A stretch of 63,508 bases of DNA, counting the filler, from Collodictyon triciliatum (lineage: Eukaryota), in the NCBI GenBank assembly GCA_043381765.1. It is 8 parts of 8 records of this genome, joined end to end, with 100 filler letters (N's around TTAATTAATTAA, not from the genome) between each part and the next. Parts side by side here need not be neighbours in the genome. Positions count along the whole stretch, not along the records: positions 26,253 to 34,870 come from JBHJMP010003355.1; 7 more parts are not named here. One strand, 5' to 3'. This document shows positions 12,245-28,727 of the stretch, in pieces; the first letter of the stretch is position 1, and each line of letters starts with the position of its first letter. A program made the position numbers and the translations under genes. Below the pieces are notes generated by a model that saw only the letters and a list, made by a program, of their open reading frames with translations, had not been told where the DNA came from and ran no database searches.

Positions 12245-13462
12245 GACTTAAGTTGTTGCTCTACGTTGATTTGGCTGTAAAATACATATTTGAGAGCTTT
12301 TACGATTTGCACGTATCAACCGTACCCTTACCTTCGAAATATAAAAACATCGGGACTAGAATTAACCGATATTACAAACACAAATCGAAAGTTCATGATG
12401 TTAGTCAGGTTCCAAATGTTGAATGACAGCATTCGTATGTTTTGTGTTATGGGTTGGTGTTAGGGTTTAGCTGGGTTGGGAAAAATTGACGATTTTGTAT
12501 TGTTGCAGTTGTTTGAGTTTTCCCATTATGACATCCAGTAGAACAACAGGATTTAATGCTCTCAGGCTGTTATAATTAATCTCCATATTGCTTTTGTGAG
12601 GTTTGCTATGATGGTTATTCATGTAGTGGAAGTCAGTGATAGTGACAAAAAGAGGAAAGACTATATATCGGCAATAGAATTATACCGTTCTATCGGCTCA
12701 AAGTCCCAGGACAAAGGAATCTTTATGACGCCGCCAATACCGAGAGAATAACCTGATGGTGAATACGGACATAAGGTGATTAAACAAGCGGGATGATCAA
12801 GCAACCTCTACACCAAACCAAACCGTGAGCGGAGTGATTGATGCAATCTGGTAGCTTGAATATTGAAGACTACGAATATTTATTGGAGGCGCTTCAGTTC
12901 ACAAGCACCGATATGCATAAGGGAGCGAGAGTCAAGCATAGGTGTAGATGGACTGGGAGGCGATTTATCAGGCAATTTACCAGTATTTGTTTCGAATCAT
13001 CTCATGTTGTATTTTATGCTCTTTTCCAGCGTTGATTCGTGTGTGTATCTTCTTGTCTCTCATGTTTTTTTTTTGAAGAGTTCTTGAAAGGAGGTTGGCT
13101 CGTTAGCACAACCACCACTGACATAAATTATGCTGTCGAGCCAACCTAACGGATGTTCATGGCAACCAGAATGCGCTCTGCACAATGTGTACTCCACTCG
13201 ACAGGCCTCCTGCCTTCGTGAACACGTGACGACCCCAACCAAGTAAGTATACACAACGGATGTCAGATTGGTTACCTTGCTTCACCTCTTCTCATTGTTT
13301 ATATAGCCCCACATCCTTTTGCATGCTTTGTGTTGCGGGTCCAGAAGTGTCTCCGTAGAAAAGAAACATTCAGCTTCGAGAAAAATCACATTGAATAAAG
13401 AGCAGTGCCAGATAGCATCAATCAAGGGGCTACACATGGTCGAGGCATCAGCCGCTATCATC

Positions 13463-16641: not shown

Positions 16642-17433
<792 letters not shown>

Positions 17434-17693
17434 NNNNNNNNNNNNNNNNNNNNNNNNNNNNNNNNNNNNNNNNNNNNTTAATTAATTAANNNNNNNNNNN
17501 NNNNNNNNNNNNNNNNNNNNNNNNNNNNNNNNNTCTCTTCTCTCTTCTCTCTTCTCTCTTCTCTCTTCTCTCTTCTCTCTTCTCTCTTCTCTCTTCTCTC
17601 TTCTCTCTTCTCTCTTCTCTCTTCTCTCTTTCTTTCGCATCTCTTAAAAGCATACATATCCTCTAGGAAACCCGACCTCTCGAGAGCAGACAT

Positions 17694-18918
17694 ATGCTGA
17701 ATCACGGCGAGATTTTCATAGAGGAAGATTTCCGTGCGGTGCCGTTTCGTGACTGGGGCACAACACATGTTTGCAGTTGGCTGAAGAGTCTGGGAATGTC
17801 TGACGAAACTCAACAGGCTTTTGAAGAGGCGCATGTGGAAGGTGGATTGCTTCAGTTCCTGAGCGACCAGGTTTTGCGCGATGACCTCCAAATCGTGCGC
17901 CCGTACGAGCGAGTCATGATTCTTCGTGAAATCCGGGTCCTGAAGGCTGTGGATGCGGCATATCGCGATGTGGACCGAAGCGATATCCAGGACAGTGAAG
18001 GAACAGGCTCTCGTTCAAGTGTCTCGTACGGAAGCTCCCAACATGCAAAGTGGTTCATTGGCCAGAGAGAAGCTCGATTTGTAAGGTACATTATGTCATT
18101 TCCAATGGTATGAAAGCCACCACGATGTTTGTCGAGATTGAAAGAAAAATTCTTTCTACATCTATGATGATTTTTTTATGAAATAATCTCCTTTTTTTTT
18201 TAAATAATATAAGGAAGAGAAGATGGCTTTCTCCTTTCCTCCTTTGCATCGGGGGCCTGATTCTGGGTGGGTGCTTTTTGGGATTATACGTGACGGGATA
18301 CTGGGATGATTCAAATGTAACATATCCTCTTATGATTGGAACATTTTTGTTTACATCTGGGATATTTGCATATATTCATAAGGCTATGAGACTACAAGAA
18401 ATGCGGGTGGACAAGATTGGGGTTCGTATTCACACAAACACGAATAGATGCGGCCTAGTTTGGTAGTTTGTCAAAGCCTTTGTAAAATGGATTTCGCTAT
18501 ATATTTACCTCTTTTCTTTAACCTTTAGATACGTCTTAGAGGGTACAGTTGGCTTCACCACCGCCAAGTGTTGCTGTACAAAGATCAGATATCACACATC
18601 ACCGCAGAAACAACTTCGGATACTCGTTACGCAATGTCAAGAGGTAAATATCAGCGCATCTCGATTGCTGTTTTCCTGGTTCTTAAGCCAGAAGATGAAA
18701 TTAAAGGTATCCCATCGTACTATCGAAAGCCAAACAACCGAATTCGGCTAATTCTACCTTATGAAGACGAGAGTTATGTAGTAGAAGCATGCCAAAGAAT
18801 TGCATTTATGGTATCTATTCCGTATACAACAAAGACCCCAAACCAAACGTCTTCGTTTACAGACCTGGGGACATCAACAACATGTTCTGTCGAGGATTTT
18901 GGCGCAATAACAGATTAG
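17694..18918 (+). CDS. SAM-domain protein with two predicted transmembrane segments (3 exons)
   Basis: Exon 1 encodes a SAM domain (DWGTTHVCSWLKSLGM...FEEAHVEGGLLQFLSDQVLRDDLQIVRPYERVMILREIRVL). Exon 2 (about 18213-18422) is hydrophobic (GLILGGCFLGLYVTGYW, YPLMIGTFLFTSGIFAYI). Exon 3 runs from about 18529 to the stop at 18918. Confidence 0.75.
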
Positions 18919-19897: not shown

Positions 19898-22800
19898 GCG
19901 ACTACTTCTCTGCCCAGCTACCAAGTGGCTCCTGTGCAAGCAAAGGCGAGCCCTCAAAACCCAAGGCCAGCCCCATTGCACCCTAACTCCCATCGGCTCT
20001 GTTCTGAACAAAATATTCTGGGTGATTTCCCGCAATCATGCCATTTGTATATTCCAAAAAAGGATGCGCTGTGCTTTTCGCTGAAGCGCATGTTGGAAAA
20101 GTCTTCTTCGGCGAAATCTCAAGCAGCCTGCCAACAATTCTCCAACACAGCGACGGACTTAAATGCGAGCCACCACGCCCATGCAACCAATAGACCCATT
20201 ACAAGGAAGAAAAAAAAAAAAAAGGAGGAAAAAAGAAAGACCTAACTGCTTCTTGCCCTAATAAATGCAAGGTGTTGCACAAACCAAAGAGCAAAGGCAA
20301 CCGTCTGCATGAGCCAGGAGAGCTTCTTTTCAGGACTTACATTCACGTGCGTAGGGCTTCGGGCTGAGGTACAGTACGCACGAGGGAAAAAAATAATAAA
20401 AATTCAGAGACAAAAATGAAGTAAACCATCTCAAAGTAATATTTTTTTATTGTCACTTTTCTTTTTCTGTGACCCCAAAGCATTTATCTTTTGCGTTCAT
20501 TCTTGAGCTGTGTGATGGATAGCGTTCATTTTAGACATGTGGTTTCAGGACTTTTTCACGAATGATTCCTATTCCTAATTTCTGTCCTACTTTTCAAACA
20601 ACAGGTCAGCTCCAAGCTCTCGGAATGTATCAATAAGTATGGAGGGGTCTTTGAAATTAACCATCAGGAGTTAGGAATTGGTGTTGGATATATTGTTGTA
20701 CCCCATCAAATTGAAGCAGCTGAAGTCGTGGTTCTCCAAAGGAAGAGCCCCTTAGCCAATCTAGTTACAACTGATTTTATAGACAGATGCATCATGGTAC
20801 TCTCGGAGTAACTATTTTTCTTCGATGTGTTAAGTCTTACTTATTTGCTCATTTTAACCGTAAATTAATTTGTCATCTTGAAAAGGATAAAGCTCTTCCT
20901 GACATTGAGTCGCATATACTATTCAAGCCAATCGTCGCAAATCCTGCCATGGCAAATGTTATTTTGTCGATATCCCAATATTCTTCTGTGGAGAAACAAG
21001 ATATTGAAGCTGTTGCCAAACTCATGAACGTTAGAATTACGAAGGAGTTTTCTAAGCAGAACACACATTTGGTTTGTGGATCTCCATCAGGCAGTAAATA
21101 CCTTGCGGCCATAAAATGGAAAAAGAATATCATCAGTTCTGAGTGGATTTATGAATGTGCCAAAAAAGTAAAAAAATAAAATAAATCATAATAACAATAA
21201 TAATTAAAGATTAAATCGAAGCATATGTCATTACCATGAACATTTCATCACATCATAAGATTAGGCCTTATATTCTGGTTTACATGCATGATAAAAACAA
21301 ATATTTTGTGTTCTCAAGTGCATCAGAGATTTAATTGTATGTGCAAACTTTATAGGGGACATATCTTGACATAGATTTTTTTGCAGTGAATCGCACGCCA
21401 GAAAAAGACTTCAAAAATGGAAATTCTATCAAAACAAAGGAATTGCAAATGGCAGATGGGGTATATTGCCAAAATAAAGCAAAACCCTCTGGTATACTTT
21501 TTCCTTTTTATTATTAAATACTGTTGGGCTTATTCATGTACATTATCATTAGATATAATCCTATGCCACGAAAAAAAATTCAAAGTAATTAAAGTTGAAC
21601 TTTGCTCTTTGATAGAGACGACATTTTCGATCAAGAAAAATGAAAACAAAACAGAGTTTGTCAATACGAAATATGTATAACACCTAATATACACGACACT
21701 AGCAATGTGAAGTAAAGAGTGATAAAATCAAAAAAAAAAATTAACCCCAGTATCAATATCAGATGTTCGATATTAAATGGATGCAAAATATTCCTTTTCG
21801 AAGAATTGAAAGTAAGCAAGAATCCCTTAAACGGAATTTTTTCTTTTTTACACGATAAAGAATTGCTATGTAACGTACACATACATATATATATATATCA
21901 AGACTTGTTCTTATGAGAAAAACCAACAGAAAGACAAAGTTATATCTCAGATGATAGTCGATATGAGTGGAAAAATTGCTACAAATTTAGACGAAACATG
22001 CTCGCATGTTATAAGAAGTATGTTCGTTGATCATTCAATCTGTAGTCTCTCAATCCTTTTGTTGAAAGAGCGTGTAAGCTAAAGAAACACTAATTTTTGT
22101 ATTTGTTTTTATTTTAGATGTGAATGGAGAAACAGGAGAGCTTGGATTAGGAATGGAGCATCTGAAGATAAGCGATGCGACAGTCTTGTCTCCAAGTTGG
22201 ATCTATGATGTACTCATACTACATGATATTTTAAATATATCTTTTGTATTTTTATGACACTATATGTTTTTATTTTTCGATGTTGCTGCTCGATACTATA
22301 GTCGTAAAAATTGTCATTAAAAGTAAAAACAAAACAGTGCTGGAAATTCTCCAAGAAAATGAACGAAGCGGACTACATCTGGCCAAACAATCCACTATTT
22401 CCAGATAAAATTTCACTACAGTATAATGACGGTAATAATATTAACATTTATTTCATTTCGACATCCAGTTTCCAATCGCACCACATCCCTTCTCAATGGA
22501 TGCTTAAAAATTGAGAATGATATAATTGGCCTTACCATATAAATTATGACCTTATTGCATTGATTGAGTAATCTATTTTCAATTCATTTTCAATATTTAA
22601 ACTCGCATTTATTTTTTCTTTATTTGACATTCTTATTTATCTATCGCAATTTTTTTTAAAAAGAAATAATCATTTTTATAATAAAAATGAATTATATTCA
22701 GAAAACAAGGATAATTTTACAAAGAATACACTGTCGTCATCGAAGATATCCTTCAAGGTTGATAGATTAACAGAAGGGCAAACAAGATTGATATCCTCTC

Positions 22801-24337
22801 TCAAGTTGAAGGTATGCAAACACGCCCAAACTCTTAGAATATGACACGACATAAAAAGGAGATGCATACATTTAGCCTTCTTTGAAATAGCTATCGTGAT
22901 TTAATGTTGCATATCCTTCATTGCATTTTCTTTTCTTTTCTTTTCTTTTCTTTTCTTTTCTTTTCTTTTCTTTTCTTTTCTTTTCTTTTCTTTTCTTTTC
23001 TTTTCTTTTCTTTTCTTTTCTTTTCAAAAAACTAAGTTCTACTTGATTTCTGTAGACCCCTCAATTTTCAAGAGTGATTCCTGCAAATCTTGTGGTAACG
23101 ACATCCCTTTTACTCACATGCTTCTTTACATATATACTACTCATCTTTTTTCTTTCGCACATTATCGGAGAGAGGAAACGACATGAAAGGCAAATATGCA
23201 ACCTTTGTAATACCTTATGGATGATATAACAAACCGGCTGTATGTGAATCGGCATGTGACTACAGCGCAAGACCTAACCCCTTGTGGAACACAGCCCATT
23301 CTCGAGACCTCTTTTGGACCGCCCACCCGCGCAACACTGTCCAAAGCTTCGTCGCTAGTGGCGATGGAGGACCGAGCAGCGTGCGCATCTGAAGGCACCA
23401 CGGAGCCAGGCCCATCGCAAGACGTCGTGTACCGGGACGAAAGCACACTGATGGAGAAGGAGCAGTTTATCGAAAGGCTGCGCCAAAGCTGCCCCCAGGA
23501 GCCCACGGGCCAGAAGCAACGCCGGTCGCTGGGCGACATACTCAGGGAGGCGGCCGCCCTCCAGGGCAGGACCCACGCGGCAGACGCGGTAGACAGTGCC
23601 GCCGTAGTGCCCGGGGCCACTCGGGGGAAGAGGCCTCTCGGCATCAGCACAGCCCAGCCTGCCTCGCCTCGCAGGCCGTCTCCCGATGCTGTGGTTGTAC
23701 GGGCGGGTTTCAACACTCCAGCGGCGGGCGCAGGAGCAACAGCGTGTGCAGAGGGCCACCCCACCAGGCAGGCCGGAAGGACCCCCGTCCCTGTTGCCAG
23801 CGTGGAGCAGCCGCTGTCTCCCCTCAAGCGGGCCAGACAGAACGGCCATCGCATGGTCATCTCTGGATTTTCGAGTAGCGAGAAGTCGCAGTTGGTGGAA
23901 GGTATGCGATTTGTCTATCCCATTCATGCACGCTTGGTTGGCCTTTGTTCTGAGTGTGAGTGTGAGTGTGAGTGAGCACCGTTCTGGAATTTCAACAGTC
24001 TCTCTTCTTTACTTTTTTATTTACGCTTTCTTTGTTCTAAGGTAAACTTTGGTCCTTGTGCGTGTATTCTCATCCTCATACCTTTCATTTGTGATGTAGC
24101 TGCCATGAAGCTTGGTGCCGAGCTGTTCGAAGACGAAAATTTCAACCCAGAGTGGACGCACATCGTGTGCTCTGTCCCGAAACGCAGCCCAAAATACATG
24201 GCCGGGCTCGCATCAGGGAAGTGGTATGATCAAATCCCTTTGCCTCATGGATTTTTTTTTATGCTCTCAAAGTTGAGCGATTGGAAATTTTTCCTGCTGC
24301 TGTCCACTACCTTCTTAAAATAACCTCCACAGCCTGC

Positions 24338-24372
<35 letters not shown>

Positions 24373-25178
24373 NNNNNNNNNNNNNNNNNNNNNNNNNNNN
24401 NNGACTCATTATCATCGCATTATATGTTAGGCTTATGCGTAAAGAGTTTGTTCTGGACTCGTTAAAGGCTGGCCACTTTTTGAACGAGGAAAAATACGAA
24501 TGGGCTGAGGAGCATGTATCGACAAAGCAGTCGAATTCTGGTCTGTCTTTCACAATTACTACCGCTATTCACAGTACCATCAGAAGTTTGCGGGATAACA
24601 AAACTCGACAATAGTTTGATAATCATTACTACTCTTTAGAAACCAAGCTACTTGCTGGAGGGGCCAGTCGGTGGCGGATGCTACTTGCCGCGCGACGGTT
24701 GATGCATGGGGTTAGCATCAGGGGCCCGTTCGAGGGTTGGCGCGTGATTTTGCACATTGACGCAGAAAAGAGGGGAGGTATCCAAGCCATTCTTGAATCC
24801 GGTGGGGCTGAAGTGGTTAATTGCAAGCCGCCTTACAAATATATCCAAGTATAGCGTTTATATATAATGCGACTCATCTCATCTCATCTCATCTCATCTC
24901 ATCTCATCTCATCTCATCTCATCTCATCTCATCTCATCTCATCTCATCTTACCTTTCAGGGAATCACGCACATATTTTTGGTCTATGCAAAGGAGGCAGA
25001 AAAGGACGCTCGAAACGCCATGCGCTCTGTTCTGGATGCTGGCATCACATGCCTGAAATGCAACTACATCATGGACTATCTGGTGCATGGGATTTATCAG
25101 CCGGAATGTGCAGCAGGCCAGCTCCCAAAGTTTGACACAGCCCTGTACAGAGCCTTCGTCCAGCCGAGCGGCGTGTGA
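19898..25178 (+). CDS. TOPBP1: TopBP1/Cut5/Dpb11-like multi-BRCT protein; multi-exon, start not resolved
   Basis: Five BRCT-like units are visible: FFSGLTFTCVG...VTTDFIDRC; VILSISQYSSVEKQDIEAVAKLM...NTHLVCGSPSGSKYLAAIKW...SEWIYEC; a central unit (ILNGCKIF...VLSPSWIYD); and a C-terminal pair (MVISGFSSSEK...WTHIVCSVPKRSPKYMAGLASGKW; GPFEGWRVILH...ILESGGAEV...NYIMDYL). The arrangement resembles TopBP1 BRCT4-8. Confidence 0.72.
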
Positions 25179-25370
25179 ATCTGTTCTGTTGCCATATGTA
25201 GCATACATCTGCAGAAACCGCAGACCATCGATGCCACCTTCTGCCTTTTGCCTCTTCCCCCACGAAAGCTCCCATCTGGTTGGCAACAGGGAGGGGGTTG
25301 CGCCGTCCTGTAAAACGGAATGCACCATGCAATATACATCAGTTTGTGCTGCACCAAGTGCTTCTTTCTT

Positions 25371-25411
<41 letters not shown>

Positions 25412-26252
25412 CATGGTTTGGTGTCCTCTCATCGCCGCCTCATGTTCTACCGATACGAAGGGAAGGAGAGGACGGGGGGAGAGCACGAGACAAAGCGCAG
25501 CGGCCTTGTGGCTCTGGTCTCAAAGAAGGAAGGAGAAACAACCACCATCGCGCCTCCATATGTGGAAAAGGCCGCAAGGCTGCACCCACGGCTCGGTTGG
25601 TGCAGAGGAAGAAAGACACGAACCGCTGTGGGATAGCCGATTGGTGCTATGGGCAATTGGAAGATTCAAATGTTCAAACACCACGTCTGCGAGGGTGCCA
25701 CTGCAGCAGGGGGGATTTCGGCGGGTGCGAAGGGAAGGAGGTCTGGGTTTGGCTGCGAGGAGGAGATTTCGGGTCCCGCAGGCCACCAGACACGGCCAAT
25801 GCAGACGCCCGCACGGCACATGCGGATAGGGTCTGGGCCGGCCATTATCGCCTGCGATGCGGAGGGGAGAGTTTCTCTGCTTTCCGGCCACGGCGGACAC
25901 GCCGATCGGCCATTCGCCCCTCTCTTTCGTCCGCCGGGCTCCCCGCGAAGACAAAGAAGGCTGTCCGTGCCGATCCTCAAGCTAGGCCGCGAAAGACACG
26001 AACGCGCACAGCCGCGCAACCCCTCATGCCTACCCTTCTGCCCGCCTCTTTCTTTATCTCTTCTTCTTCTTCTTCTTCTTCTTCTTCTTCTTCTTCTTCT
26101 TCTTCTTCTTCTTCTTCTTCTTCTTCTTCTTCTTCTTCTTCTTCTTCTTCTTNNNNNNNNNNNNNNNNNNNNNNNNNNNNNNNNNNNNNNNNNNNNTTAA
26201 TTAATTAANNNNNNNNNNNNNNNNNNNNNNNNNNNNNNNNNNNNNNNNNNNN

Positions 26253-26480
26253 TAAAAAACACATAAAAAAACACATAAAAAACACATAAAAAAACACATA
26301 AAAAAACACATAAAAAAACACATAAAAAAACACATAAAAAAACACATAAAAAAACACATAAAAACACATAAAAACACATAAAAAACACATAAAAAACACA
26401 TAAAAAACACATAAAAAACACATAAAAAACACATAAAAACACATAAAAAACATATAAAAACACCTAAAAGCACATAAACA
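26253..26480. repeat. A-rich minisatellite of about 11 bp, (AAAAAACACAT)n
   Basis: Directly visible tandem array at the scaffold start, with slight variation in A-run length. Confidence 0.95.
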
Positions 26481-26661
26481 CATGAAAAAGATAAATCTCT
26501 AACCAAAACCTCGAGCATAATTCAAATGGAAACAAACGAAAGTGATCGACAACCCATAGCAGACAGGAAGTAAAAAGGAGGCAAGCCAGCAAAGCAGAAC
26601 AAGGAATAAAAAGATAAAAAAAAAGCCCTCCAGTAAGCCGGCAAGCAAAGTGATGTTGGAG

Positions 26662-28326
26662 AAGCCAACCCGTTCAGCACACACAAACCTCCCGGTCCTA
26701 CAAGGTCATGAAAATCCAATACCCATATCTCACAACGAATACTTATTCAAAATACTGATCGTCGGACCCTCGGGCTCTGGGAAATCGTCATTTGTTCGTC
26801 GACTCGTTTTCAATCAGTTCACAGAAAACTCTTTGGCGACAATATCCACCCCACATGAAGATAATTATATCAAACATTTAGTATTTTCTAATCATGGGAA
26901 AAAAAAGCGATAATAATTAAGTGAATGCAAATGATGATAATAGACAAATACATAAAACATTAAAATAAACAGCCAATGTGAATTTTTTCTCGAAATCCTC
27001 CAAAGTGAATCCTACATTTAAAAGAATGAAAAGAAAAGAGTTCTTTAACGCACACAAATCGGGGTAGACTATGCTTTGAAAGTGATTAAATGGGATGAAG
27101 ATACGGTGGTGCGGCTTCAAATGTGGGATATAGCTGGTCAAGACAGGAATCAGACTTTATCAAGAGTATTTCAAACCACATTAATACGATGATGTAGCTA
27201 TAAGTTTAAATAAATGACAAATGCCTACACTTAAAAAAGACAATTATTCACTCACGATGGATTGTTTATCATGAATTCATATCCAGACATTCTACAAAGA
27301 GGCAGTTGGTGCTTTTATTGCTTTCGACTTATCTCGTCCTGAAACACTTACCGAGACACTGTCGTGGAAAAGTGCACTGGATGAAATTGCGCAAGAAATG
27401 GGGGTGTACAAAATACCAACTATACTGCTCATTACAAAGGTAATAGTGTAGAAGAATGTGCCAATCATCATTTGATTGTAAGCATTACGGAATGGACACA
27501 TATAAATAATTTATAATTTCTACCGCAGCTTGTAAGATGCACTTTTTTGTCTCGGGTTATTTATATAGATTGATGCTGCGTCTGAAGGAAGCAGAAGAAT
27601 TCTCCAGGATATGGATATGATTATATCGAGTCATAAATTCACGACATGGTGGGTTGTGGTACCTCTTGACACTTTTTTTTTTAAAAAAAAAAATATTCAA
27701 GGAGAACCCCCATGGAGTTTTCTGAATAATTTAGTATGCATTCTGTAAATATGCTATACATCTTACAGCCTGTTTATACTTGAGGAATATCTACCAAATT
27801 CCAAAGCTGTCTCATTCTTATTAAAAAAAATTAATCAAGCTCTTCTTTTAAACATTTGGATAGTTTATATAGATAAGACTGCCGGATGTACTTGTTTTGT
27901 TTTGTCTTTGTCTTTGTCTTTGTCTTTGTCTTTGTCTTTGTCTTTGTCTTTGTCTTTGTCTTTGTCTTTGTCTTTGTCTTTGTCTTTGTCTTTTCCTTTT
28001 TCTTTGTCTTTGTTCTGCTTTTTTCTGTTTTGTTTTGTTTTCTTTTTTTTATTCATTAAAGATACTATATCCACATTTAACTAAATCTCGCATCGCTTTG
28101 AATCGAATAAAGGAAAAAAACAACTAAATCTCGCATTGAAATTCCATTAACTAGGATTGGTATCTCATCAAAGGATTCGAAAAACGTTGAAGAAGCAGTT
28201 CGCGCCATGATTGATTCCGTGATAACTTACGTCAAGGTCTCAGGGAGAGCCTCGCAAGTAACAGAAACGGTCAACGATACCATATGTTTACCATCCACCC
28301 AACCCGCAAGTCGAAAATGTTGTTAG
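26662..28326 (+). CDS. RAB32: Rab32/38/29-family small GTPase (5 exons; first intron U12-type AT-AA)
   Basis: Motifs EYLFKILIVGPSGSGKSS, AT/IGVDYALKVIKWDEDTVVRLQMWDIAGQ (WDIAGQ is the Rab32/38/29 hallmark), FYKEAVGAFIAFD, LLITK/ID and C-terminal RKCC*. Exons are at about 26662-26841, 27058-27165, 27288-27438, 27569-27648 and 28155-28326. Confidence 0.88.
28079..28136 (+). mobile_element. Family A micro-retroposon with a perfect 15-bp TSD, in the last Rab32 intron
   Basis: AACTAAATCTCGCAT - CGCTTTGAATCGAATAAAGGAAAAAAAC - AACTAAATCTCGCAT. Confidence 0.88.
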
Positions 28327-28727
28327 ATTGCAGCTACAAAATCCGTTCTTCCAGTCCCACCCCCCTTTCCCCTCCTCCTTTTCATTCACCTCGATAAATC
28401 CAATTCAGTTGCACGCAAAAGCTCACCTCAAAGAAAACCAAATGAATCCGGGGATTCTAGGTGGCATTTTTAACAAATCAGCTTTTCTTGTCTGTTTTGT
28501 TTGTTTTTTCATAAAAAAAAATAAATAAAATGAATAATTAATCCAAGATAAATAATTTTGTTCTCTGTATTCGCGTCGTTGGCGGACGAATCGTATGATC
28601 TCAAGAAAGTCCCGATCTCAGGGTCACATGTTGGCAGATAACAAAGAAGTTGTATGGGTCAGAACGAAGCCTTCTAACAAAGCTGGCCATATTAGGAAAA
28701 ACAGAAAGCAACAGCGAAGGAGGAGCA

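What the first reader, a model, noticed from the sequence alone, without database searches (positions are those of the whole stretch)
26842..27057. Non-canonical AT-AA minor-spliceosome intron required to build the Rab32 switch I motif
Seen: exon 1 ends ...SLAT and exon 2 starts IGVDYALK. The join that restores the conserved TIGVD motif removes ATATCCAC...TTCTTTAACGCACACAA. This has a U12-like 5' site and a U12-like branch sequence close to the 3' end, but it terminates in AA. The two AC dinucleotides just upstream (ending 27053 and 27055) give out-of-frame products, and the nearest GT/AG sites would delete switch I residues. Established: RTATCC 5' sites with TCCTTAAC-like branch points define U12 introns, and AT-AA termini are rare variants. 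Inference: this organism retains a minor spliceosome, and AC versus AA acceptor choice could gate productive Rab32 mRNA.
Basis: partly seen in the sequence, partly recalled or inferred. Interest (0 to 1): 0.72.

Follow-up and report, generated by a model that had tools for sequence, protein, structure and literature searches.

The report
AT-AA minor-type intron in Rab32-like gene
A 216-base intron with unusual AT...AA ends in a Rab32-like GTPase gene is removed from the transcript exactly as proposed, and it looks like a minor-spliceosome (U12-type) intron, which is a rare but already well-described kind.

Summary
Window 26842-27057 (216 nt) begins ATATCCACC and ends TTCTTTAACGCACACAA.

- **RNA support:** one cDNA-like contig from public run X1 matches exon 1 and exon 2 with no substitutions and skips exactly 216 nt. 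The cut can be placed in four registers, one of which is AT..AA.
- **Protein support:** the join is seamless. Pfam Ras profile position 31 is the last residue of exon 1 and position 32 is the first residue of exon 2. Exons 2 and 3 match Rab38/Rab32 best among solved structures.
- **U12-type features:** the intron has the U12 core donor ATATCC. It has an 8/9 branch-site match that places the branch A at -10. It has no pyrimidine tract, unlike the three GT-AG introns of the same gene.

The best reading is an A-type (AT-AN) U12-type intron.

That the organism has a minor spliceosome is inferred only. No genome is held, and no minor snRNA lies in the window. The proposed "AC versus AA gating" has no evidence.

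AT-AA is the commonest non-canonical minor-intron subtype (PMC10639083), so this is a new member of a known kind and of modest interest.

The parts
26653..26841 (+). Exon 1 of the Rab32-like gene. It runs from the ATG to ...SLAT (63 codons) and carries the P-loop GPSGSGKS.
   Evidence: Translation. Pfam Ras profile positions 1-31 match residues 33-63. The X1 contig covers it and at least 116 nt of 5' UTR.
26842..27057 (+). Intron 1: 216 nt, phase 0, AT..AA termini, read as U12-type (A-type, AT-AN).
   Evidence: Skipped exactly by one X1 contig.
26842..26850 (+). Donor ATATCCACC. The first six bases match the U12 core RTATCC. Positions +7 to +9 are ACC instead of the consensus TTT.
   Evidence: The consensus is as quoted in the Physarum preprint.
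27041..27049 (+). Branch-site motif TTCTTTAAC, an 8/9 match to TTCCTTRAC. The presumed branch A at 27048 is position -10 from the intron end.
   Evidence: The exact 9-mer occurs only twice in the window on both strands.
27056..27057 (+). 3' terminal dinucleotide AA. AC dinucleotides end at 27053 and 27055, and an AT ends at 27059; using any of these would shift the frame.
27058..27165 (+). Exon 2 (36 codons): IGVDYALK... through switch II WDIAGQD.
   Evidence: Pfam Ras profile starts at position 32 at residue 1. Best solved-structure matches are Rab38 at 1.4e-11 and Rab32 at 4.7e-11; the next family is Ypt1 at 3.9e-5. The X1 contig ends its match at 27165.
27166..27286 (+). Intron 2, GT..AG, 121 nt.
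   Evidence: Residue numbering in Rab32 runs on from exon 2 to exon 3. The junction itself was not seen in RNA.
27287..27439 (+). Exon 3 (51 codons).
   Evidence: Best solved-structure matches are Rab32 at 2.8e-8 and Rab38 at 6e-6; the next is RhoE at 0.048.
27440..27568 (+). Intron 3, GT..AG, 129 nt, with a pyrimidine tract.
   Evidence: Inferred from the reading frame.
27569..27648 (+). Exon 4 (80 nt).
   Evidence: Open frame. The donor at 27649 is used in the X2 contig.
27649..28154 (+). Intron 4, GT..AG, 506 nt, in the inferred productive form. It holds a (TTGTCT)n array at 27892-28013 and a duplicated 15-mer.
   Evidence: The frame needed to read the SSK (G5-like) motif and the C-terminal CC. 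The only RNA joint seen (X2) uses the AG at 28172-28173 instead.
28155..28326 (+). Exon 5, ending ...SRKCC followed by TAG. The spliced product is 233 residues.
   Evidence: There is a weak match to the C-terminal end of Rab27B (E 0.9).

Best explanation
Intron 1 of a divergent Rab32/38-family GTPase gene is a U12-type (minor-spliceosome) intron of the A-type, AT-AN class with AT-AA termini.

Proposed mechanism, by analogy with characterised U12-type introns:
1. U11, and later U6atac, recognise the ATATCC donor.
2. U12 pairs with TTCTTTAAC. The one departure from the consensus (C to T) would still pair with U12 as a G-U wobble.
3. The branch A lies at 27048.
4. The 3' cut is chosen mainly by distance from the branch site, with a relaxed terminal dinucleotide. 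It falls after the AA at 27057, 9 nt downstream. The two AC dinucleotides are only 5 and 7 nt from the branch A.

Removal is precise, in phase 0, and joins ...SLAT to IGVD..., which restores switch I.

Shown here: the exact removal of 216 nt in RNA, the motifs, and the seamless protein join. Inferred: the AT..AA register among four equivalent cuts, the branch point, and the dependence on minor snRNPs.
For: - **RNA.** One contig of run X1 joins 26840/41 to 27057/58 and skips 216 nt. It has 0 substitutions over 390 aligned bases.
- **Protein join.** Pfam Ras profile position 31 falls on the last residue of exon 1 and position 32 on the first residue of exon 2. In Rab38 chain 6s5h_A, exon 1 residues 26-61 match residues 5-40 and exon 2 residue 1 matches residue 43, so the numbering runs on without a gap.
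- **Donor.** ATATCC matches the U12 core. It has A at +1 and T, C, C at +4 to +6, where the GT-AG introns seen here read GTAAGA, GTAAGC and GTAATA. The window's U1 gene has a normal 5' end, ATACTTACTTGG.
- **Branch site.** It is an 8/9 match ending 8 nt before the intron end, which puts the A at -10.
  - In Physarum, the branch A of confident U12-type introns lies in the range -12 to -10.
- **No pyrimidine tract.** The pyrimidine fraction at -25..-5 is 0.43, against 0.62, 0.71 and 0.57 in introns 2-4.
- **Chance.** The joint expectation of both motifs at a given site is about 6e-7.
- **Precedent.**
  - AT-AA accounts for 823 conserved minor introns in animals (1.117%) and 690 in plants (2.958%) (PMC10639083, Table S1).
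  - AT-AN introns are treated as an established minor class in PMC8280824 (passages).
Against: - Donor positions +7 to +9 are ACC, not TTT, so only 6 of the 9 extended donor positions match.
- The branch A sits 9 nt from the 3' end, shorter than the reported optimum of 11-13 nt.
- No minor snRNA or minor-specific protein was found. The genome could not be searched, and the window holds none.
- The RNA support is a single contig of modest depth. It comes from a run whose 'RNA' label is a guess, and it leaves four cut registers open.
- The same 9-mer also sits 6 nt before the AG of an apparently ordinary GT-AG intron at 18514-18522. The branch-site motif alone is therefore not specific in this genome.
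- The intron is in phase 0. From recall, not checked here, this is the less common phase for minor introns.
Confidence: 0.78

Rival explanations
1. A real intron with non-canonical ends that is removed by the major spliceosome, or by some lineage-specific non-conventional route. In this reading the ATATCC and TTCTTTAAC motifs are coincidental.
For: - The organism is unidentified and its minor spliceosome is unverified.
- Donor positions +7 to +9 do not match the consensus.
- A TTAAC-type motif also lies close to the 3' end of two GT-AG introns: 18514-18522, and TCCATTAAC at 28143-28151.
Against: - A donor starting with AT and reading ATATCC pairs poorly with the normal U1 5' end encoded in the window. 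From recall, major-type AT-AC introns read ATAAGT.
- There is no pyrimidine tract.
- The intron with 10 nt of each flank folds no better than shuffles (-28.1 kcal/mol, z = +0.39). There is therefore no end-pairing structure of the kind recalled for euglenid non-conventional introns.
- The joint chance of the two motifs is about 6e-7.
Confidence: 0.1
2. An artefact. The possibilities are reverse-transcriptase template switching, a mis-assembled contig, or a canonical AT-AC intron hidden by a 2-base error at 27056-27057 in the genome assembly.
For: - Only one contig of one run shows the joint.
- There is a 3-base microhomology (AAT) at the joint.
- No DNA read covers the intron's 3' end.
Against: - The best 12-mer similarity between the donor and acceptor regions is 0.5, far below the 0.916 cut-off used for RT artefacts in the Physarum preprint.
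- The joint restores a conserved protein residue for residue. The same contig also ends its match at the next predicted exon end, 27165.
- The mRNA reads ...ACA then ATC... with no extra A. An AT-AC reading therefore needs two spurious A bases in the assembly.
Confidence: 0.06
3. DNA-level elimination: an internal eliminated sequence removed from a somatic genome, rather than RNA splicing.
For: The tool could not say whether the joined form also exists in DNA runs (table 5b not given). The run's RNA label is a guess.
Against: - The ends are not TA-bounded.
- The gene's other interruptions are ordinary GT..AG introns.
- TAG serves as the gene's stop codon.
- The window has long introns and long intergenic stretches. 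From recall, this is unlike ciliate somatic DNA.
Confidence: 0.02

Closest known systems
A-type (AT-AN) U12-type introns, AT-AA subtype, of animals and plants (PMC10639083 Table S1; PMC8280824)
   Same: An ATATCC donor, a TTCCTTRAC-like branch site about 10 nt from the 3' end, no pyrimidine tract, and AT-AA termini. AT-AA is the commonest non-canonical minor-intron class: 823 animal and 690 plant conserved introns.
   Different: The extended donor reads ACC instead of TTT at +7 to +9. The host is an unidentified eukaryote whose minor snRNAs were not seen. It is not known whether the intron position is shared with other Rab32 genes.
Non-canonical U12-type introns of Physarum polycephalum, first noticed in GTPase genes (preprint 10.1101/2020.10.12.336362; passages read)
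   Same: A small-GTPase host gene. [quoted passage not shown] The branch A lies at -10 to -12.
   Different: - The Physarum branch motif is TTTGA, matched by a changed U12 snRNA. Here the motif is TTTAA.
- My scans of the window gave no clear sign of extra U12-type introns. RTATCY sites number 131 on both strands, which by my own arithmetic (not a tool result) is roughly what base composition predicts. The Physarum-style motif scan was too noisy to decide.
- An ATATCCTT at 22746 lies inside an open exon.
Major-spliceosome (U2-type) AT-AC introns
   Same: They begin with AT and end with a dinucleotide other than AG.
   Different: From recall, these keep the major-type donor (ATAAGT-like) and a pyrimidine tract. 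This intron has ATATCC and no tract.
Human RAB32 / RAB38 / RAB29 (solved structures 6ff8, 5oec, 4cym, 6s5h, 6hdu, 6hh2)
   Same: Exons 2 and 3 match Rab38 and Rab32 best, by 3 to 6 orders of magnitude over other small GTPases. The gene has a WDIAGQ-type switch II and a C-terminal CC.
   Different: - Exon 1 is divergent. The P-loop is GPSGSGKS, and among solved structures exon 1 matches Rab11A, Rab1 and Rab38 about equally.
- No close relative of exon 1 appears among 1.84 billion cluster representatives.
- The G4 motif reads TKID where, from recall, Rab proteins read NKxD.

Membership tests
U12-type (minor) intron | 5' splice site /RTATCC(TTT) | tested here: met
   ATATCC at 26842-26847 matches the 6-nt core. 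Positions +7 to +9 are ACC, so 6 of 9 extended positions match.
U12-type (minor) intron | Branch-site sequence TTCCTTRAC close to the 3' end (optimum 11-13 nt; PMC3584512) | tested here: met
   TTCTTTAAC at 27041-27049 is an 8/9 match. The branch A at 27048 lies 9 nt before the last intron base, at position -10, which is slightly short of the optimum.
U12-type (minor) intron | No distinct polypyrimidine tract | tested here: met
   The pyrimidine fraction at -25..-5 is 0.43, against 0.62, 0.71 and 0.57 in the gene's GT-AG introns.
U12-type (minor) intron | Termini AT-AC or GT-AG, or a documented variant (AT-AN) | tested here: met
   AT-AA is a documented variant. The RNA joint allows four registers, and AT..AA is the only one with a donor motif.
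U12-type (minor) intron | Actually excised from RNA at these sites | tested here: met
   One contig of run X1 skips exactly 216 nt. It is a single contig, and the run's RNA label is a guess.
U12-type (minor) intron | The organism encodes U11, U12, U4atac and U6atac and the minor-specific proteins, and splicing depends on them | not testable with these tools
   No whole genome is held. Within the 63.5-kb window only U1 and two tRNAs reach gathering scores, and no minor snRNA appears up to E = 5.
Rab32/Rab38 subfamily of Rab GTPases | Best similarity is to Rab32/38 rather than to other Rabs | tested here: met
   - Exon 2: Rab38 1.4e-11, Rab32 4.7e-11, Rab7L1 9e-9, next Ypt1 3.9e-5.
- Exon 3: Rab32 2.8e-8, Rab38 6e-6, next RhoE 0.048.
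- Exon 1 is not discriminating.
Rab32/Rab38 subfamily of Rab GTPases | Canonical GTPase motifs (P-loop GxxxxGK[ST], DxxGQ, NKxD, SAK) and a C-terminal prenylation motif (motif patterns recalled) | tested here: inconclusive
   Present: P-loop GPSGSGKS, DIAGQ, and a C-terminal CC. Changed: G4 reads TKID and G5 reads SSK. This is a divergent member.
Major-type AT-AC intron | Major-type donor (ATAAGT-like, recalled) and a pyrimidine tract | tested here: not met
   The donor is ATATCC and there is no tract.
Euglenid-type non-conventional intron | Stable pairing that brings the intron ends together (recalled) | tested here: not met
   The fold of 26832-27067 gives -28.1 kcal/mol and z = +0.39, with 127 of 200 shuffles folding at least as well.

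The most novel reading that the evidence does not exclude
The genome may carry more relaxed A-type minor introns than usual, some interlaced with major introns.

- The only other copy of TTCTTTAAC in the window (18514-18522) is also preceded by ATATCC, at 18322. It also has an in-frame 3' end exactly 8 nt after the motif (AT at 18529-18530). This candidate AT-AT intron would enclose an ordinary GT-AG intron whose AG lies 2 nt upstream, giving a nested, 'twintron'-like arrangement.
- The one RNA joint seen for Rab32 intron 4 uses a frame-shifting acceptor.

Together these leave open that error-prone or regulated 3' site choice, minor-type included, tunes the productive mRNA of several genes in an as yet uncatalogued lineage.
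Probability: 0.1. Interest if true: 0.55.

Novelty: new member of a known kind. Interest (0 to 1): 0.25.

Why it matters
- **Annotation.** Gene finders restricted to GT-AG or GC-AG introns will truncate or mis-join this Rab32-like gene at switch I. Neither word-index search (exon 1, exon 3) found a matching protein model, whether for that reason or because this genome's proteins are not in the collection.
- **Minor spliceosome.** A well-formed RTATCC intron is indirect evidence that this unidentified eukaryote keeps a minor spliceosome. The window also encodes IFT46, an ARID/BAF250-type protein and H2A.Z. That matters only if the lineage has not yet been surveyed.
- **Biology.** It adds one more example to a class already counted in the hundreds (AT-AA minor introns). 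It does not open a new question by itself.

Tried and rejected
1. **Whole-genome search for U12 (RF00007).** No genome is held. U11, U4atac and U6atac were therefore not tried genome-wide.
2. **Rfam on the window.** At gathering scores and at E up to 5 there was no minor snRNA. The sub-threshold miRNA, snoRNA and RNase P rows fall well below their gathering scores and were ignored.
3. **Relatives of the gene.**
   - Word-index searches with exon 1 and exon 3 ('longer') found nothing.
   - The full HMMER scan with exon 1 gave 45 hits at E up to 0.001. The top-scoring hits are long multi-domain P-loop proteins at 27-33% identity, and no hit looks like an orthologue.
   - The junction could therefore not be confirmed in a relative.
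4. **Metagenome scan.** Exon 1 gave 21 loci that mostly match the P-loop region (about residues 20-60) and none reaches the exon end. They were not used.
5. **Identity of the organism.**
   - The Atlas look-up of the Sel1 ORF returned bacterial Sel1 clusters only.
   - H2A.Z exon 2 is 96% identical to an unnamed EukProt transcript and 90% or less to everything else.
   - The lineage remains unknown.
6. **Physarum-like excess of U12 introns.**
   - RTATCY sites number 67 on the + strand and 64 on the - strand.
   - Scans requiring a branch motif and open frames gave mostly noise.
   - ATATCCTT at 22746 is inside an open exon.
   - The ATATCT...TTTCTTAAC pair at 36167-36397 lies in AT-rich, apparently non-coding DNA.
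7. **Other checks on the intron.**
   - The RT-artefact test was negative: 12-mer similarity 0.5.
   - The end-pairing fold test was negative.
8. **Runs X3 and X4.** Nothing from X3 was laid. X4 was laid only on a short repeat at 28087-28124 and on 27631-27693. Neither says anything about the gene.
9. The third query (27288-27440) was one base out of frame, so its 'no family' result means nothing; one search repeats it in frame. The gap in the pattern was mis-set; one search is the corrected pattern.
10. **Earlier findings of this scan.** There was nothing for this genome or this sequence. One unrelated note on a known human U12 intron did not change my reading.

Full report
**1. What is in the sequence**

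The window is eukaryotic nuclear DNA.
- It has GT-AG introns, a U1 snRNA gene at 13089-13250 (-) and two tRNA genes.
- It encodes a polyubiquitin, and genes with Myb, SAM, BRCT, NHL, Sel1, LRR, histone H2A.Z, ARID/BAF250, IFT46 and DnaJ domains.

At 26653-26841 an open frame starts with ATG and ends ...SLAT. The next 216 bases (26842-27057) begin ATATCCACC and end GTTCTTTAACGCACACAA. From 27058 the same frame reads IGVDYALK....

**2. Is the piece really removed?**

Yes, as far as one contig can show. I laid four public runs on 26560-28420.
- One 426-nt contig of run X1 (depth 4.9) lies on 26560-26840 and then on 27057-27165. It has no substitutions and one extra A in a poly-A run, and it skips 216 nt.
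- Three bases fit either side of the joint. Four cut registers (AA..CA, AT..AA, TA..AA, AT..AT) therefore give the same mRNA.
I take these to be the start of exon 3, but did not see them.
- The run's RNA label is a guess by the tool. A contig with a precise in-frame deletion that also ends at the next exon boundary is best explained as cDNA.

**3. Is the join biologically right?**

- The Pfam Ras profile matches exon 1 up to profile position 31 at its last residue, and matches exon 2 from position 32 at its first residue.
- Against solved structures, exon 2 matches Rab38 (1.4e-11), Rab32 (4.7e-11) and Rab7L1, far ahead of Ypt1 (3.9e-5). Its first residue is residue 43 of chain 6s5h_A, while exon 1 residues 26-61 match residues 5-40 of the same chain.
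- Exon 3 matches Rab32 (2.8e-8) and Rab38, and little else.
- Using the AC dinucleotides that end at 27053 or 27055, or the AT that ends at 27059, gives stops after residues 74, 66 and 72. The only in-frame GT-AG pairs nearby delete 18 or more residues.

The spliced gene has five exons and encodes 233 residues ending in CC. It is a divergent member of the family:
- the P-loop is GPSGSGKS;
- G4 reads TKID and G5 reads SSK;
- exon 1 has no close relative among 1.84 billion cluster representatives.

**4. What kind of intron is it?**

- The donor ATATCC is the core of the U12-type 5' site. The consensus is [G/A]TATCCTT, as quoted in the Physarum preprint.
- TTCTTTAAC matches the branch consensus TTCCTT[G/A]AC at 8 of 9 positions. 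It ends 8 nt before the intron end, which places the second A of TTAAC at -10. My inference is that the one mismatch, C to T, would still pair with the G of U12 as a G-U wobble.
- The last 25 nt are purine-rich. The pyrimidine fraction is 0.43, against 0.57-0.71 in the gene's three GT-AG introns.
- The other introns I could read in the window have ordinary major-type donors: GTAAGA in H2A.Z, GTAAGC in DnaJ, and GTAAGG and GTTCGT in the SAM-domain gene. The window's U1 has a normal 5' end.
- In the window, ATATCC occurs 49 times and a branch match of 8/9 or better occurs 19 times in 121,047 positions. Finding both at the ends of an RNA-supported intron is not chance (about 6e-7).
- The joint does not look like a template-switching artefact. 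The best 12-mer similarity between the two ends is 0.5, against the 0.916 cut-off used.
- The intron has no special fold (z = +0.39).

Points against:
- +7 to +9 of the donor are ACC rather than TTT;
- the distance from branch site to 3' site is a little short of the 11-13 nt optimum (PMC3584512, passages);
- the same 9-mer also sits 6 nt before the AG of a GT-AG intron at 18514-18522.

**5. What could not be tested**

No genome is held for this window, so the presence of U11, U12, U4atac, U6atac and the minor-specific proteins is unknown. The window itself holds none.

I could not name the organism.
- H2A.Z exon 2 is 96% identical to an unnamed EukProt transcript and 90% or less to all else.
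- One contig of a freshwater metatranscriptome run (X2) matches exons 4 and 5 without mismatch.

I could not compare intron positions in other Rab32 genes.

**6. The 'gating' idea**

Only the productive joint is seen, and contigs drop rare variants. This neither shows nor excludes use of the AC sites.

Known rules give a simpler account. U12-type 3' sites are chosen largely by distance from the branch site and tolerate a varied last base. The two AC sites are 5 and 7 nt from the branch A, and the AA is 9 nt from it. The review read also says that U12-type 3' site selection is error-prone. Some non-productive AC joints would therefore be unsurprising without being regulatory.

**7. Comparison with what is known**

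- AT-AA is the commonest non-canonical terminus of conserved minor introns in animals (823 introns, 1.117%) and in plants (690, 2.958%) (PMC10639083: passages and supplementary Table S1).
[quoted passage not shown] - AT-AN introns are treated as an established 'A-type' class in PMC8280824 (passages).
- This window is not obviously Physarum-like. The branch motif here is TTTAA, not TTTGA, and my scans found no clear sign of further U12-type introns.

**8. Verdict**

It is a new instance of a known, catalogued kind. Its practical value is for annotation, and as indirect evidence of minor splicing in an unidentified eukaryote. Interest 0.25.

Noticed in passing
window 27649-28173: The only RNA joint seen for intron 4 comes from one 153-nt contig of metatranscriptome run X2 (0 mismatches, depth 3.1). 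It uses the AG at 28172-28173, not the AG at 28153-28154 that keeps the conserved frame. The 19-nt difference shifts the frame and gives a stop at codon 188, which removes the G5-like motif and the C-terminal CC. A TCCATTAAC motif lies only 3 nt before the productive AG, which may disfavour that AG.
   Followed up: partly
window 18322-18532: The only other TTCTTTAAC in the window (18514-18522) is also preceded by ATATCC, at 18322, 186 nt upstream. It has an in-frame AT exactly 8 nt after the motif (18529-18530), and an out-of-frame AC at 18531-18532. This candidate minor-type intron would enclose an ordinary GT-AG intron (about 18424-18528) in a SAM-domain/membrane protein gene.

The pattern ATATCC-N(180-210)-TTCTTTAAC occurs twice against 0.02 expected, but I chose the spacing after seeing the first case. 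Both the open frame and a weak Acyl_transf_3 match run through the region. No RNA data were available.
   Followed up: partly
window 13089-13250 (-): A U1 snRNA gene (76.7 bits, full length). Its 5' end reads ATACTTACTTGG, that is T where, from recall, the usual U1 has the second C of ACCTG.
   Followed up: partly
window 28079-28136: A 15-mer is duplicated 43 nt apart inside intron 4. The stretch 28087-28127 is covered by many short, deep contigs in runs of two different coded organisms (X1 and X4; word depth about 45-48). This suggests a dispersed, transcribed or high-copy repeat.
   Followed up: partly
window 23000-26200, 33000-34500, 46000-48100, 51200-53000: GC-rich blocks (up to about 55% GC in 2-kb bins) lie between AT-rich stretches of 21-35% GC. 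ORFs are open in several frames on both strands of these blocks. The H2A.Z gene (47481-47950, -) lies in one of them. Neighbouring genes thus differ strongly in composition.
   Followed up: no
window 26253-26478 and 27892-28013: There is a long microsatellite array just upstream of the Rab32-like gene (period 12 in the TRF output with an 11-base consensus unit, about 20 copies). A second lies inside its intron 4 (TTGTCT, about 21 copies). Many further arrays and N-gaps break other genes, for example IFT46.
   Followed up: no
window 26653-28326: The Rab32-like protein has TKID where, from recall, the guanine-specificity motif is NKxD, and SSK where it is SAK. Its N-terminal 63 residues have no close relative in the searches made. 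It may be a fast-evolving or functionally altered paralogue.
   Followed up: partly
window 16900-17481: A polyubiquitin gene with at least three head-to-tail monomers is cut by an assembly gap. The monomers join directly (...RLRGG then MQIF...) with no inserted residue.
   Followed up: no
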